Positions 27,260 through 32,659 of a stretch of DNA of 64,000 nt are shown here, one piece after another (the stretch's first letter is position 1; each line of letters starts with the position of its first letter). The notes beneath the pieces were generated by a model. The model saw nothing but the letters and a program-made list of their open reading frames with translations. It was not told the origin of the DNA and searched no databases. The stretch comes from a virus. The translations under genes were made by a program, and so were the position numbers. The DNA lies in the IMG/VR virus record IMGVR_UViG_3300018080_000001, positions 96,001 to 160,000 of that record; one strand, written 5' to 3'.

Positions 27260-27670
27260 TCACCCTATATTATATTTGAATCGTTGCCCGTCACTCTCAG
27301 GACTACCACAAAAATAAGTGTACCAGAAAAAACCTGCGTCAATTAGACCCACTAGCGGAAATATAATAAAAAATATTTTCCACTCAGTTGGAACTAAGTA
27401 AACTACAAGTGACATAAGAAAGAACCAAAATAAACCAGCAAAAAATGGTGCTATGTGTCTTGGCTTTGGGGAAGCAAACTCAGAAGCCTCTCCAGAAATG
27501 TAACGAGAAAAATAAAATCTAGAACGATACCGGTGCGGGTAGGGGTAAACACCCAAAGGTTTTCTTCCCTCAACGATCCAACCAACCAAAAGGTGGCTTA
27601 ACTCATGCATAAGATTTTGCATAAACCAGGCTACGGGGATAGTCAAGAAAACATACCAAGAAAATTCCAT
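27260..27670 (-). CDS. Membrane zincin-like metallopeptidase
   Basis: HELSH (HExxH) in hydrophobic context, ...AP...SDG; GAGGAG RBS before ATG 27670. Confidence 0.6.
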   Translation of the reverse strand: MEFSWYVFLTIPVAWFMQNLMHELSHLLVGWIVEGRKPLGVYPYPHRYRSRFYFSRYISGEASEFASPKPRHIAPFFAGLFWFFLMSLVVYLVPTEWKIFFIIFPLVGLIDAGFFWYTYFCGSPESDGQRFKYNIG

Positions 27671-27739
27671 TTCGCAGCTCCTCACAAAATAAGATACTTT
27701 TACAAAAAATAAGATTTTGATAATCGATAGCAATAAGCG

Positions 27740-28082
27740 GATTAAAAATTTATTTTCAAATTTTTAAATATAAAAACTATATTTTTAGTTATAAACTATA
27801 ATAGACCCTTCCCCTCTTTCCTTCCTTCTCCCCCATACCCCCTCTTCTATCCTATTACCCTAACCCTTTAGAACTTAGAAATACATGTTTGTATTTCTAA
27901 GTTCATATTGTTATTAGACTACTTGTCACCTATGGTGACATGTACTCCAAGTTCTATGTTCAATCTCTGCTACTATATTTATATTATAACTATGTTCAAA
28001 TGGACGTATAGCTATAATATAAATATAGATAGCAAGATTTTCCCTACGGTAAAATCTACTATTCAGCGCACGCGCGCGTGAT
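27740..28082. other. Non-coding hairpin-rich region, candidate replication origin or packaging site
   Basis: AT-rich tract, pyrimidine tract with CCCCCATACCCCC, three inverted repeats (27871-27904, 27924-27940, 28029-28062), CACGCGCGCGTG palindrome. Confidence 0.45.
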
Positions 28083-28588: not shown

Positions 28589-28773
28589 GGCGCTTCTTCC
28601 GTCATAAATTGCATGGAACTCTTGGTTAAAACCAGATCAGAAATTTTTAGTCTTTCATCAGGATTCAAGCACGTAGCACACGTAAGTTTTTTTCTAAACT
28701 TTATAACTATATCAACTTTTCCGCAATGCTTACACACACCCTTTTTACCCAGACTTCTACTGTTATTTGTCAT
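28585..28773 (-). CDS. Small zinc-finger protein
   Basis: CKHC...CATC; start overlaps the kinase stop codon. Confidence 0.6.
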   Translation of the reverse strand: MTNNSRSLGKKGVCKHCGKVDIVIKFRKKLTCATCLNPDERLKISDLVLTKSSMQFMTEEAP

Positions 28774-30074
28774 TATTCATTACCCGCTGTTTTCAGTATT
28801 GGTAGAGTTATATAAAAAGTAGTTCCTTTATCATCTGTTTTATATAATTCTAATTTTCCGCCCAATGCTTTTATTTTATTTTTAGCTAAAAATAAACCAA
28901 GCCCACTACTTCCTTGCTTTTCTTCATCTGTATTAAATTTTGTAAAAAGTTTATTCTTTATTTCCTCCTTTATACCCGGTCCATCATCTTCAATAGCAAT
29001 TGTTATAGATCCTCCACCATTTACTACCATTAATATTATTTCAACTTTTGAAGATCCGGCCTCAAAAGCATTATTAATTAAATTATCTATCGATATTCTT
29101 AAATTTTCCATTTTACCTTTTATATAAACATTAGGTAATTGTTTTATTATAATATTCTTATTTATATCGTTAGAATACAACTCGTCTATAAGATCTTTAA
29201 TACAAAATTTATCATCACCATCTTTTATATTACATAAATAATCTTCCGCTATTTTAGATATTTTATCTACATCTATTATAGTATCATTCAGCGCATCAGA
29301 TGCATCTATACTGTTGATTTCACTACTTTCTTTTATAAATTGAAGATTAAAATTAACCGGTAATATTAAATTTTTTATTTCATGCAGTAAAGTACCTACT
29401 GCAATAACACTGGAATCAACTTTATCCTCTTTTAATAATATATCTACTTGATCAAGAGCATCTTCCGTCTTTTCTTGTTTAACTTCTAGTGTTCTATATG
29501 AACGAGTTAATCTTGCTTGATGTAAATAAAAAACAAAATTAAATACAAATAAGAAAAACTGAATTACAGTAATATCTAGTATTAAAGAAAATATAAAAGG
29601 TATTAATATAATTTTAATAACACTTATAATAGAAATACCTATAAATCTAGCCCATTGATTACACATTATTATATAAAGAACCATCAAACTACACGAAACT
29701 GTCGGTACAGACGACAGTGATGCCATTATAGTAACCGACGAAGCATAAAGAGGTATATCTATTAATTGCGATATTACTGCTACGTGCTTATTTTTATGTT
29801 TCCAATAATAATGATAACCTGTAGAAGAGATTAAACCCGCGATACTAGAGAATATAAGAGGAAACCAACAAATAAAATAATAATAATTTTCATATAAATT
29901 TATACCAATATTGGTAAAAGAAAATAAAAACACAACGGGTATAACATAAGCCGGACCACATTGAAGCATAGAACCTTCTAAATTAATTGAATTATAATAT
30001 GAGAACCAGAGCTTTTTTATCCCTTGAACAAACTTACTAAATTTTGACAATATTCTATTGCTATTGAACCGCAT
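28773..30074 (-). CDS. Membrane-bound sensor histidine kinase (HisKA + HATPase)
   Basis: About 5-6 TM helices, then H-box LLHEIKN, N-box NLINNA, G1 EDDGPGI, F-box LF, G2 GLGL. Confidence 0.93.
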   Translation of the reverse strand: MRFNSNRILSKFSKFVQGIKKLWFSYYNSINLEGSMLQCGPAYVIPVVFLFSFTNIGINLYENYYYFICWFPLIFSSIAGLISSTGYHYYWKHKNKHVAVISQLIDIPLYASSVTIMASLSSVPTVSCSLMVLYIIMCNQWARFIGISIISVIKIILIPFIFSLILDITVIQFFLFVFNFVFYLHQARLTRSYRTLEVKQEKTEDALDQVDILLKEDKVDSSVIAVGTLLHEIKNLILPVNFNLQFIKESSEINSIDASDALNDTIIDVDKISKIAEDYLCNIKDGDDKFCIKDLIDELYSNDINKNIIIKQLPNVYIKGKMENLRISIDNLINNAFEAGSSKVEIILMVVNGGGSITIAIEDDGPGIKEEIKNKLFTKFNTDEEKQGSSGLGLFLAKNKIKALGGKLELYKTDDKGTTFYITLPILKTAGNE

Positions 30075-30769
30075 ATTTCTGCCTTACATTCTAAATCGTC
30101 TAACGCTCTATTAAATAAATTACTTTTATCTTTATTACTTAAACTTATATAACGTTCGTCTAGCGAATTTTTATCATGTATGATTTGTAAAATGATTCCA
30201 TAAGTCATACCTAAATTATACCAATTTTCTAAATTATCAGATCCTCCGGATATAGCAGCTAAATTAAAATATAGAGCGAACTGCTCTCCCGCAACTCTTT
30301 TAGCCACTTCATAATAAGTATCATAATCCCATAAAGTTGTAACTAATTCTAATCTTTGACCCACAAACATTTTGGATAACGAAGTAAACATTATGTTCGC
30401 AATTTTATCTGAGATAGAGTAAGATCTCATTACAGCCAGACTAAACATATGCGATTGAGTATTGATTTGCAAAGACATTGGTATATCCATATAAGATGAA
30501 TCACCATCCTGCATATCGTCGGTCAAGTTTACAGCGGCAAAGAACAACTCAGCCAAAGAACCCGCGACAAGGGCTTGGCTTTCTAAAGCTCCAATCTTCT
30601 TACTCACATCATATACTAACCCCCCGGGGTGTGCCTGTACAGAAGAACGGTCAAGAGCCTTCTGTATGTTCTCCCGAGAAGGCGCGTCAATAACAGGGAA
30701 TTGTTCTTGCGAGAGCTTGTAGAGCCATCTACGAGTCTCCCAGCTTATATAAGGGTTGGAAGCAGACAT
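30017..30769 (-). CDS. ComQ-like isoprenyl transferase (trans-prenyltransferase fold)
   Basis: ELFFAAVNLTDDMQDGD (first Asp-rich motif), GQ motif, degenerate second motif LQIIHD, no RRG loop. Confidence 0.8.
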   Translation of the reverse strand: MSASNPYISWETRRWLYKLSQEQFPVIDAPSRENIQKALDRSSVQAHPGGLVYDVSKKIGALESQALVAGSLAELFFAAVNLTDDMQDGDSSYMDIPMSLQINTQSHMFSLAVMRSYSISDKIANIMFTSLSKMFVGQRLELVTTLWDYDTYYEVAKRVAGEQFALYFNLAAISGGSDNLENWYNLGMTYGIILQIIHDKNSLDERYISLSNKDKSNLFNRALDDLECKAEICGSIAIEYCQNLVSLFKG

Positions 30770-30786
30770 GATTTATAAAATCAAAA

Positions 30787-31050
30787 CTAGGGAAAGTATA
30801 CAGCTGCGCCAGACACATTACTATTTAGGACGTTAGTATCGTCCATAAATTTCTTTACCGCGTCTTTCACAGTTTTTGCTTTGGCGGGGTCTCCAGCGGC
30901 CAGATCATCAATAGCTTCTTCCAGCTTCTTCTCAAATGCCGGATTAAAACTTTGTGCTCCTGGGTTTCCGGTAATAGCTCCGATCTCATACAATGCTTCT
31001 AGCATTGCAGGGAAAGAGCTAGCCATGTTAATAAGTACGGGGGTTGCCAT
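30787..31050 (-). CDS. Putative ComX-like signal precursor peptide
   Basis: 87 aa, strong AAGGAG RBS, helical core, C-terminus NVSGAAVYFP; first gene of the cassette. Confidence 0.6.
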   Translation of the reverse strand: MATPVLINMASSFPAMLEALYEIGAITGNPGAQSFNPAFEKKLEEAIDDLAAGDPAKAKTVKDAVKKFMDDTNVLNSNVSGAAVYFP

Positions 31051-31143
31051 TTTCTCTTCTCCTTGTTATTCATACATTCACTGCGAATGCATACAACAGT
31101 CTCTAATATACTATAGGATCTTTGGAAAATATAAAAAATCTAT

Positions 31144-31506
31144 TTATAACGGCGTAATTGTACTGGCTGTGGAAGGAACCACTCCATTATTATAGTCATC
31201 CAATAACTGATTATAATTTTCAATTATTTCATTTATTTTTGTTTTTAACGCAGGAATTGTAGGAACTTCGTTATCATCCAACCAATTAGCCAAGCCTTCT
31301 ATTATTATACGTGTAAATTTATCTGCCAACCATTCTTGACCAGGCGTTACCGTATCACCTGGTTCTGGCGGTGTTGGCGGGGTTCCGATATCTGGAGGAT
31401 ACTCAATTTTTAACCCTGTAGGATCTCCTAAAGCAAGTTTTATATCTTCTTTACTGGCATCTGCAACATCTTGTATTGCACTGCTTAAATCTCCGTAGGT
31501 AGTCAT
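31144..31506 (-). CDS. Hypothetical protein
   Basis: 120 aa, GGAG RBS. Confidence 0.7.
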   Translation of the reverse strand: MTTYGDLSSAIQDVADASKEDIKLALGDPTGLKIEYPPDIGTPPTPPEPGDTVTPGQEWLADKFTRIIIEGLANWLDDNEVPTIPALKTKINEIIENYNQLLDDYNNGVVPSTASTITPL

Positions 31507-32084: not shown

Positions 32085-32273
32085 CTATCTATTCTTTTTC
32101 CACTCATCTAGAGACATCTGTCTAAGCTCTCTTTCTATCAGTCTTTTCCATCTAGTATTATCATATTTTTCTTTTAGCTGTTCTAAAGTCAATTCCTCTA
32201 AACACATTATTTTCCTGTTGGCATTAATACGATTTAATGCATGTGCTTCTGCTTCTTCTTTGGTTGCAGACAT
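32085..32273 (-). CDS. Hypothetical protein
   Basis: 62 aa, AAGGAG RBS. Confidence 0.6.
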   Translation of the reverse strand: MSATKEEAEAHALNRINANRKIMCLEELTLEQLKEKYDNTRWKRLIERELRQMSLDEWKKNR

Positions 32274-32287
32274 AAAAGTATCTCCTT

Positions 32288-32659
32288 CTACCGTTCAAGT
32301 ATTTTCTCGTCTTCAATTATAAAACCGACCTTTTCAAAAAATTCTTTGAATTTATCAAAATTTGGTTTTTTTATCCAACTGAAATAATCCAAATATATAA
32401 TATTATTTTTCGGTTCTGTATGCATTATAACATGATTTTCTCCGGTAATAATTGCAACACTAAAACCTACACTTTCGGGAAAAAATTCATGTTTAACAAC
32501 AGCAAATATAGAACATTCTGCATAGTGACAAGAACTTAGTAAAAGGTTATATAGTGCATTATTATCAAATAATGATATCCGATTAAAATATATTCCCGCA
32601 TTTTCTGTGAATATATTAGTATCTTTACTTAATTTAAGCATTAAATGTTTATGGCTCAT
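32288..32659 (-). CDS. S-adenosylmethionine decarboxylase (SpeD)-like protein, catalytically degenerate
   Basis: KHEF.P..GFS..IITGENHVIMHTEP...YLDYFSW versus canonical ESHxSxHTxPE...DxFTC. Confidence 0.65.
   Translation of the reverse strand: MSHKHLMLKLSKDTNIFTENAGIYFNRISLFDNNALYNLLLSSCHYAECSIFAVVKHEFFPESVGFSVAIITGENHVIMHTEPKNNIIYLDYFSWIKKPNFDKFKEFFEKVGFIIEDEKILER

What the first reader, a model, noticed from the sequence alone, without database searches (positions are those of the whole stretch)
30787..31050. Signal precursor has no tryptophan: possible Tyr/Phe prenylation
Seen: the 87-aa ORF contains no Trp or Cys and ends NVLNSNVSGAAVYFP, with Tyr third from the C-terminus. Known: ComX pheromones are prenylated on a Trp three to four residues from the C-terminus. 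Inference: the Tyr (or adjacent Phe) occupies the acceptor position, which would be new chemistry for a ComQ-type enzyme and a new RiPP-like signal.
Basis: partly seen in the sequence, partly recalled or inferred. Interest (0 to 1): 0.75.

Follow-up and report, generated by a model that had tools for sequence, protein, structure and literature searches.

The report
Tryptophan-free peptide beside phage ComQ-like enzyme
An 87-residue phage gene with no tryptophan sits directly in front of an enzyme that resembles the lipid-attaching ComQ of Bacillus pheromone systems, so it may be a signal precursor modified on another residue such as tyrosine. Nothing computed here can show this, because neither protein has any known relative.

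Summary
The minus-strand ORF 30787-31050 encodes 87 residues with no Trp or Cys and ends ...NVSGAAVYFP, with Tyr at -3. It has a strong ribosome-binding site. These features are not rare: 37.5% of this phage's 60-120-aa proteins lack Trp, and 32% have an aromatic residue in the last four.

The neighbouring 250-aa gene makes it interesting. A ComQ profile built here from 31 sequences scores it 25.2 bits (best of 500 shuffles 6.1). A chain-elongating prenyl-synthase profile scores it 1.6 bits. It shares ComQ's first Asp-rich motif and two ComQ-type deletions, but has His where ComQ has Asn/Gly/Ser in the pseudo second motif. A multi-pass histidine kinase follows.

The window lies in a complete 170-kb phage genome with no response regulator.

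The 87-aa protein matches no ComX or NHLP model, and Trp was present in all 32 Bacillaceae ComX genes examined. Peptide, enzyme and kinase sensor are all orphans, so conservation of the tail cannot be tested. Complex prediction gave no verdict.

My best reading, at about 0.33, is a Trp-less precursor modified near its C-terminus, on Tyr rather than Phe. Other first-stage notes of this scan flagged the same cassette. On other DNA the scan found ComQ-like cassettes with Trp peptides.

The parts
30787..31050 (-). X87: an 87-aa ORF and the candidate precursor peptide. It has no Trp or Cys. It is predicted at low confidence to form three helices (residues 4-26, 37-51, 55-78) followed by an unstructured tail.
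31059..31064 (-). Shine-Dalgarno sequence AAGGAG, 8 nt upstream of the X87 ATG.
   Evidence: An SD-like motif precedes 53% of this phage's putative genes, against 7% of random 17-mers.
30790..30816 (-). Codons for the C-terminal tail, residues 79-87 (VSGAAVYFP). Tyr85 is at 30796-30798, Phe86 at 30793-30795 and Pro87 at 30790-30792. This is the proposed core or acceptor region.
   Evidence: Sequence. pLDDT is below 50 for residues 76-87.
30017..30769 (-). Q250: a 250-aa ComQ-like prenyltransferase-fold protein. It starts 17 nt after the X87 stop codon and has no SD of its own.
   Evidence: Pfam polyprenyl_synt 27.7 bits, cut-off 27. ComQ HMM 25.2 bits against IPPS HMM 1.6 bits. hhalign probability 75% against 8.5%.
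30506..30520 (-). First Asp-rich motif, DDMQD (residues 84-88). It is followed directly by GDS and has no RRG loop.
   Evidence: Alignment.
30164..30178 (-). Pseudo second motif, HDKNS (residues 198-202). His198 sits where ComQ has N/G/S and chain-elongating synthases have D. Asp199 is invariant.
28773..30074 (-). Multi-pass membrane histidine kinase. It has about 5-6 hydrophobic segments, then an H-box (LLHEIKN, His231) and N, G1, F and G2 boxes. The alternative start at 29969 would remove the 58-nt overlap with Q250.
30470..31050 (-). Compositional island. GC3 is 0.41 in X87 and 0.52 in the first 150 nt of Q250, falling to 0.18 at Q250's 3' end. The mean over putative genes is 0.27 with sd 0.08.

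Best explanation
X87 is the precursor peptide of a phage-borne ComQ-type signalling cassette.

Proposed steps:
1. A helical N-terminal leader of about 78 residues docks on the ComQ-like enzyme Q250.
2. Q250 uses its intact first Asp-rich motif and Mg2+ to ionise a prenyl diphosphate.
3. The prenyl group is transferred to a nucleophile in the short disordered tail (SGAAVYFP). Because there is no Trp, the most plausible acceptor is the phenol of Tyr85, by O- or ortho-C-prenylation. Phe86 is not plausible.
4. Host proteases and exporters would release a short lipopeptide.
5. The adjacent multi-pass histidine kinase senses the lipopeptide and signals through a host response regulator.

Shown here: the gene anatomy, the ComQ-likeness of Q250, the absence of Trp in X87, and the absence of a phage response regulator. 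Inferred: every biochemical step, including that X87 is a substrate at all.
For: 1. Q250 is ComQ-like rather than a chain-elongating synthase. The ComQ HMM scores it 25.2 bits (E 3.4e-10; best of 500 shuffles 6.1), and the HepT/IspA HMM scores it 1.6 bits. hhalign gives 75% against 8.5%.

2. Q250 has the ComQ-type FARM (DDMQD-GDS) without an RRG loop. It lacks the GKPxGxD loop after the second motif. A non-Asp residue precedes the invariant Asp.

3. X87 is the only small ORF abutting Q250. The gap is 17 nt, X87 has a strong SD and Q250 has none.

4. X87 and the 5' third of Q250 share a GC3 island that sets them apart from both neighbours. This suggests they were acquired together.

5. The low-confidence model shows a helical body and a tail of about 9 residues with pLDDT below 50. 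This is the architecture described for StheX, which is ordered over 1-59 and disordered over 60-69 (bioRxiv 10.64898/2026.08.29.745113). PalX is similar: an 80-aa NHLP leader with an 8-aa core (PMC10853753).

6. The peptide / ComQ-like enzyme / membrane kinase trio is the composition of the PalP-PalX-PalQ cluster (PMC10853753).

7. The acceptor-side motif differs from all 31 ComQs at conserved positions. Q250 has H198 where ComQ has N/G/S, K200 where ComQ mostly has Tyr, and D204 where ComQ mostly has an aromatic residue. This is compatible with a different acceptor.
Against: 1. Every characterised ComQ-family substrate carries the modified Trp. I found Trp in 32 of 32 Bacillaceae ComX genes.

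2. PalQ and ComQ-natto were reported to accept only Trp (PMC10853753, PMC13731918).

3. X87 scores inside its own shuffles against a ComX HMM (-1.2 bits). It matches no Pfam, NCBIfam or PHROG family.

4. Small ORFs are the norm in this stretch of the phage, so adjacency alone is weak evidence.

5. Lack of Trp and an aromatic C-terminus are common among this phage's small proteins.

6. Q250 reaches Pfam's cut-off only marginally and is shorter than the ComQs fetched here (250 aa against 286-327 aa). His at the position where Asn-to-Asp mutation removes 90-98% of activity might equally mean a disabled or different enzyme.

7. The only database similarity of X87 is a weak match to a repeat of a phage fibre-like protein.
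Confidence: 0.33

Rival explanations
1. X87 is an ordinary small helical phage protein with no link to prenylation. Q250 acts on another substrate, most likely a Trp-containing ComX-like precursor of the unknown host. The phage would then rewrite or eavesdrop on host quorum sensing. A small indole-type molecule is another possible substrate, as for the IPPS-fold enzyme Ord1.
For: X87 has no Trp, while Trp is universal in known substrates (PMC10853753). X87 belongs to no precursor family. The region is packed with unrelated 60-120-aa ORFs. The phage has no response regulator, so the cassette must already rely on host components. X87's only hit is to a fibre-like phage protein repeat.
Against: The shared GC3 island and the 17-nt coupling tie X87 to Q250 rather than to its upstream neighbour. 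In known systems the precursor gene abuts the enzyme gene. The host is unknown, so no host peptide can be named.
Confidence: 0.33
2. Q250 is a degenerate or repurposed ComQ-fold protein that no longer transfers prenyl groups. It could, for example, be a binding or decoy protein. X87 would be its partner or an unrelated protein, and no lipidated signal would be made.
For: The Pfam score is marginal (27.7 against a cut-off of 27). The protein is about 40-75 residues shorter than the ComQs fetched here (250 against 286-327 aa). His replaces the Asn/Gly that mutagenesis showed to be critical (PMC5331326; bioRxiv 10.64898/2026.08.29.745113). The composition is mosaic within the gene, which may indicate a chimaera.
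Against: The FARM DDxxD, the GQ motif, the Q of QIxxD and the invariant second Asp are all intact. Ser and Gly occur naturally at the His position in ComQs that have Trp substrates. The ORF is intact and sits in an operon with an apparently functional kinase.
Confidence: 0.17
3. The true precursor is a different Trp-bearing small ORF of the phage. The only candidate within about 3 kb is the 62-aa gene at 32085-32273, which ends ...SLDEWKKNR with Trp at -5 and has a strong RBS. X87 would be an accessory protein.
For: A systematic scan for ORFs with Trp in the last seven residues found this as the only credible gene (GAAGGAG RBS). Trp at -5 is within the ComX range of -2 to -6.
Against: It lies about 1.3 kb upstream of Q250, with five genes in between, counting X87. 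The protein is highly charged and Lys/Glu-rich throughout, unlike known pheromone tails. Its GC3 of 0.29 is like the phage background, not the X87-Q250 island. It matches no family.
Confidence: 0.05

Closest known systems
ComQ / ComX / ComP of Bacillus subtilis and relatives (comQXPA; ComQ = InterPro IPR033965, ComX = Pfam PF05952)
   Same: The enzyme matches a ComQ profile (25.2 bits). It has the ComQ-type FARM, no RRG loop, no GKP loop and a non-Asp-rich second motif with the invariant Asp. A small ORF abuts the enzyme gene and a polytopic histidine kinase follows.
   Different: The gene order is X-Q-P, not Q-X-P. The peptide has 87 residues, against 50-73 in ComX. It has no Trp and no similarity to ComX. 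The first pseudo-SARM residue is His, where ComQ has Asn/Gly/Ser. The kinase has a HisKA-type H-box (HEIKN) and its best full models are PrsK/AtoS-like. From my own knowledge, not tested here, ComP belongs to the NarL-partner class of kinases, which would make this one a different class. There is no ComA-like regulator. The locus is in a phage.
PalQ / PalX / PalP of Paenibacillus alvei (PMC10853753)
   Same: It is a three-gene unit: a histidine kinase, a precursor of about 80 aa with a long helical leader and a short aromatic C-terminal core (PalX core DNVRRFFW; X87 tail SGAAVYFP), and an isoprenoid-synthase-fold peptide prenyltransferase of very low similarity to ComQ.
   Different: PalX has a recognisable NHLP leader and a strictly C-terminal Trp. 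PalQ accepted no other residue tested. X87 matches no NHLP model, ends in Pro and has no Trp. PalQ keeps both Asp of its second motif. I could not compare the PalQ sequence directly.
StheQ / StheX of Sphaerobacter thermophilus (bioRxiv 10.64898/2026.08.29.745113)
   Same: The peptide gene is immediately adjacent to the enzyme gene. The peptide has an ordered body and a disordered C-terminal tail of about 10 residues. The enzyme has FARM plus a pseudo-SARM.
   Different: StheX has Trp at -2, and Trp68 was shown by MS to be prenylated. The StheQ pseudo-SARM is NDxxD, with Asn215 essential. Q250 has HDKNS.
Cyanobactin F-family (ABBA-barrel) Tyr prenyltransferases such as PagF and LynF
   Different: The fold is unrelated (alpha/beta barrel, metal-independent). 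The substrates are usually cyclic peptides. These enzymes are not linked to kinases or signalling. Q250 shows no sign of that fold.

Membership tests
ComQ-type peptide prenyltransferase (for Q250) | Belongs to the trans-isoprenyl diphosphate synthase superfamily (Pfam PF00348). | tested here: met
   27.7 bits against a cut-off of 27, over residues 63-199. This is marginal. Bacillus ComQs score 55-69 bits and true synthases 200-247 bits. The fold could not be confirmed, because the AF2 single-sequence model had pLDDT 36.
ComQ-type peptide prenyltransferase (for Q250) | Intact first Asp-rich motif DDxxD. | tested here: met
   DDMQD at residues 84-88 aligns with the invariant D, D and D of 31 ComQs.
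ComQ-type peptide prenyltransferase (for Q250) | Pseudo-SARM NDxxx or GDxxx in place of DDxxD (PMC5331326). | tested here: not met
   Q250 has HDKNS. The second Asp is kept and the motif is not Asp-rich, but the first residue is His. The 31 ComQs have N in 28, S in 2 and G in 1; the synthases have D in 10 of 10.
ComQ-type peptide prenyltransferase (for Q250) | Closer to ComQ than to chain-elongating synthases, and lacking the IPP-binding RRG and GKP loops. | tested here: met
   ComQ HMM 25.2 bits against IPPS HMM 1.6 bits, with a shuffle maximum near 6. hhalign 75% against 8.5%. Both loops are absent, as in ComQ.
ComQ-type peptide prenyltransferase (for Q250) | Prenyl transfer to a peptide Trp. 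| not testable with these tools
   This needs biochemistry.
ComX pheromone precursor (for X87) | Sequence membership (Pfam PF05952, or a ComX profile). | tested here: not met
   No Pfam hit in X87 or anywhere in the genome. The ComX HMM built here scores -1.2 bits, and 159 of 500 shuffles score as high or higher. hhalign probability is 1%.
ComX pheromone precursor (for X87) | Trp in the C-terminal region as the prenyl acceptor. | tested here: not met
   X87 has no Trp at all. Trp is present in 32 of 32 ComX genes examined.
ComX pheromone precursor (for X87) | Small ORF abutting the prenyltransferase gene on the same strand. | tested here: met
   It lies 17 nt upstream of Q250. The order is X-Q, whereas Bacillus has Q-X.
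PalX / NHLP-type or StheX-type precursor (for X87) | Recognisable NHLP or Nif11 leader domain. | tested here: not met
   No NCBIfam or Pfam match at E up to 1.
PalX / NHLP-type or StheX-type precursor (for X87) | Folded helical leader followed by a short disordered core. | tested here: inconclusive
   The model shows three helices and a coil over residues 79-87, but mean pLDDT is only 54 and there was no alignment.

The most novel reading that the evidence does not exclude
A phage encodes its own lipopeptide pheromone system in which a ComQ-fold (isoprenoid-synthase-fold) enzyme prenylates a tyrosine instead of a tryptophan. The His-for-Asn change in the pseudo second motif would provide the base for the phenol. 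This would be both a new acceptor chemistry for this enzyme fold and a new class of phage communication signal.
Probability: 0.22. Interest if true: 0.8.

Novelty: new variant of a known kind. Interest (0 to 1): 0.5.

Why it matters
All ComQ-family enzymes characterised so far (ComQ, PalQ, StheQ) modify only tryptophan. A natural member paired with a Trp-free peptide would widen the chemistry of this fold and give a new tool for peptide lipidation.

The setting adds interest. My four literature searches found no report of a phage-encoded ComQ-type cassette. A self-made lipopeptide signal sensed by a phage kinase would be a new route for phage decision-making.

If X87 is not the substrate, the ComQ-like enzyme probably acts on a host peptide. 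That would be a different and also unreported kind of interference with quorum sensing.

Tried and rejected
**Homologue searches, all empty apart from the query itself**
- X87, Q250 and the kinase sensor domain were searched against 5.8 billion proteins.
- X87 was searched by HMMER against 1.84 billion representatives. The only hit was one weak match to a repetitive fibre-like phage protein. Its E-value of 3e-6 rests on five copies of the same repeat, and the best single pairwise alignment is 14 identities in 35 residues.
- tblastn and blastn against 50,697 phage records found nothing.
- IMG/VR pattern scans with Q250 and with the terminase found nothing.
- There are no paralogues in the phage genome.

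**Structure**
- The single-sequence AF2 model of Q250 was unusable (pLDDT 36).
- Complex prediction on Q250 plus X87 returned no verdict, with scores of 0.00 and the controls not run. This is evidence neither way.

**Other checks**
- phmmer of Q250 against PDB gave only E of about 1 to octaprenyl-diphosphate synthase. It was useful only as an anchor for the second motif.
- Rfam and repeat scans of 27.5-32.5 kb found nothing relevant.
- No promoter was found in the 93-nt gap upstream of X87.
- A frameshifted or read-through Trp-bearing tail is rejected. The +1 frame after the tail has no Trp, and reading through the TAG adds two residues before a TGA.
- A ComX-like ORF between Q250 and the kinase is rejected. 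The only candidate, 23 aa at 29890-29961, lies inside the kinase reading frame.
I reached Bacillus genomes through IF-1 instead.
- The Paenibacillus ComQ-like locus L128 has no obvious adjacent peptide and was not pursued.

Full report
**The observation**

The minus-strand ORF at 30787-31050 exists as described. It encodes 87 residues with no Trp and no Cys and ends NVLNSNVSGAAVYFP, with Tyr85 third from the end. It is very probably a real gene:
- AAGGAG lies 8 nt before its ATG.
- An SD-like motif precedes 53% of this phage's putative genes, against 7% of random 17-mers. Putative genes here are 252 non-overlapping ORFs of 60 aa or more picked by my own script.
- 236 of those 252 genes are on this strand.
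- GC1 exceeds GC2.

The listed features are not statistically unusual. Among 112 proteins of 60-120 aa in the same phage, 37.5% lack Trp, 8% lack both Trp and Cys, and 32% have an aromatic residue in the last four. The interest rests entirely on the context.

**Context**

The window is part of a complete 170,099-bp virus record with direct terminal repeats. Its terminase is only 36% identical to its nearest phage record, Virus Rctr197k. The host is unknown.

Transcription runs from high to low coordinates. The gene order is:
1. X87
2. after 17 nt, a 250-aa protein (Q250, 30017-30769)
3. a 433-aa histidine kinase (28773-30074)
4. three small ORFs
5. a 349-nt gap with two strong hairpins

The kinase has about five or six hydrophobic segments, followed by an H-box (LLHEIKN) and N, G1, F and G2 boxes. 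The genome has no receiver domain and no Pfam ComX match.

**Is Q250 ComQ-like?**

Pfam polyprenyl_synt matches only marginally, at 27.7 bits against a cut-off of 27. To test the claim properly I reached a Bacillus velezensis genome through IF-1. From there I collected 30 Bacillaceae comQ-comX loci, one Paenibacillus ComQ-like gene, and 10 HepT/IspA synthases from the same genomes.

| Comparison with Q250 | Against ComQ set | Against HepT/IspA synthases |
|---|---|---|
| HMM score | 25.2 bits (E 3.4e-10 for one sequence; best of 500 shuffles 6.1) | 1.6 bits, inside the shuffle range |
| hhalign probability | 75%, over 128 columns | 8.5%, over 49 columns |

The alignment shows that Q250 shares several ComQ-specific features:
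- The FARM architecture DDxxDxD(N/S), without the RRG loop.
- The GQ motif.
- QIxxD at the second motif.
- A deletion of the GKPxGxD loop.

The exception is the first pseudo-SARM residue. ComQs have Asn (28), Ser (2) or Gly (1), the synthases have Asp (10 of 10), and Q250 has His198. The literature defines ComQ by FARM plus NDxxx or GDxxx. It also shows that Asn-to-Asp mutation removes 90-98% of activity (PMC5331326; bioRxiv 10.64898/2026.08.29.745113).

Q250 therefore works like, and is most similar to, the ComQ branch, but it fails one defining motif. Two further positions on the acceptor side also differ: K200 where ComQ mostly has Tyr, and D204 where ComQ mostly has an aromatic residue.

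**Is X87 a precursor?**

Evidence against:
- It matches no ComX, NHLP or other family.
- It scores -1.2 bits against a ComX HMM, inside its own shuffles.
- It lacks the Trp that I found in all 32 ComX genes examined. In the 22 aligned sequences Trp lies at -2 to -6 and is at -3 in 13 of them. The natto type carries it about 20 residues from the end.
- PalQ rejected the other electron-rich residues tested at the acceptor position, and ComQ-natto is reported as Trp-specific (PMC10853753, PMC13731918).

Evidence for:
- It is the only ORF abutting Q250. It is tightly coupled to it, and it has a strong SD while Q250 has none.
- X87 has a GC3 of 0.41 and the first 150 nt of Q250 have 0.52. The mean over putative genes is 0.27 with sd 0.08, the upstream gene has 0.24 and the kinase 0.16. 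This suggests X87 and the 5' part of Q250 arrived together.
- A low-confidence model (pLDDT 54) gives three helices and a coil of about nine residues at the end. This is the leader-plus-tail layout reported for StheX and PalX.

**What could not be tested**

X87, Q250 and the kinase sensor are orphans in every collection searched.

The one hit of X87 is to a repeat of a 1661-aa fibre-like phage protein, and it is weak. The shared motif is TGNxxAxSFxxAFEKxL, the best alignment has 14 identities in 35 residues, and the E-value is inflated by five repeat copies.

The Q250 structure prediction failed.

**Alternatives**

A scan for small ORFs with Trp near the C-terminus found one credible gene, at 32085-32273 (62 aa...SLDEWKKNR). 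It lies about 1.3 kb upstream of Q250, is highly charged, and has background composition.

The main rival to the precursor reading is that X87 is an unrelated small phage protein and Q250 acts on a host Trp peptide or a small molecule. A third possibility is that Q250 is catalytically degenerate.

**Verdict**

The proposed Tyr/Phe acceptor chemistry is neither supported nor refuted.
- If X87 is the substrate, Tyr85 is the plausible acceptor and Phe86 is not.
- I put the precursor-with-non-Trp-acceptor reading at about one in three.
- Tyr prenylation specifically I put at about 0.22.
- Simple co-expression followed by mass spectrometry would settle the question.

**Earlier notes of this scan**

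Other first-stage notes flagged this same cassette. Follow-up reports on other genomes describe ComQ-like cassettes with Trp peptides in several phyla. One note describes ComQ-like enzymes paired with Trp-less leader-like peptides. I did not verify those.

Noticed in passing
window 27260-27733 (-): A 157-aa membrane protein carries an HELSH (HExxH) motif and matches no Pfam family. It could be a membrane metalloprotease. It lies about 1 kb downstream of the cassette, so it might process a peptide, but nothing links it to X87.
   Followed up: partly
window 32288-32659 (-): A 123-aa protein matches Pfam AdoMet_dc (S-adenosylmethionine decarboxylase) at 33 bits, above the cut-off of 25. It is a possible auxiliary metabolic gene of the phage.
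   Followed up: no
window 30470-31050: There is a GC3 island. X87 has 0.41 and the first 150 nt of Q250 have 0.52, falling to 0.18 at the 3' end of the same gene. The kinase has 0.16 and the mean over putative genes is 0.27. This suggests a recombination junction inside the ComQ-like gene.
   Followed up: partly
window 29969-30074 (-): The kinase start is ambiguous. The ATG at 30074 overlaps Q250 by 58 nt and adds 35 residues that include a Trp. The ATG at 29969 has GAAGG 4 nt upstream and would leave a 47-nt gap.
   Followed up: partly
window 32085-32273 (-): A 62-aa Lys/Glu-rich protein with a strong RBS ends ...SLDEWKKNR. It is the only credible small gene within about 3 kb that has Trp near its C-terminus.
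   Followed up: partly
window 27871-27904 and 27973-28028: A perfect 15-bp hairpin and a 21-bp hairpin of 95% complementarity lie in the 349-nt gap after the last small ORF. They probably mark the end of the operon that contains the cassette.
   Followed up: no
L001 6001-10986 (protein P0003): A 1661-aa, highly repetitive Ser/Ala/Asp-rich protein lies on a phage-like metagenome contig beside a tail-terminator gene. Its repeat WTGNSLASSFGSAFEKLL weakly resembles residues 26-43 of X87.
   Followed up: partly
window 31144-31506 (-): A 120-aa Pro/Thr/Asp-rich orphan lies directly upstream of X87. It has moderately raised GC, mostly from amino-acid composition (GC1 0.49, GC2 0.41, GC3 0.24), and no family match.
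   Followed up: no
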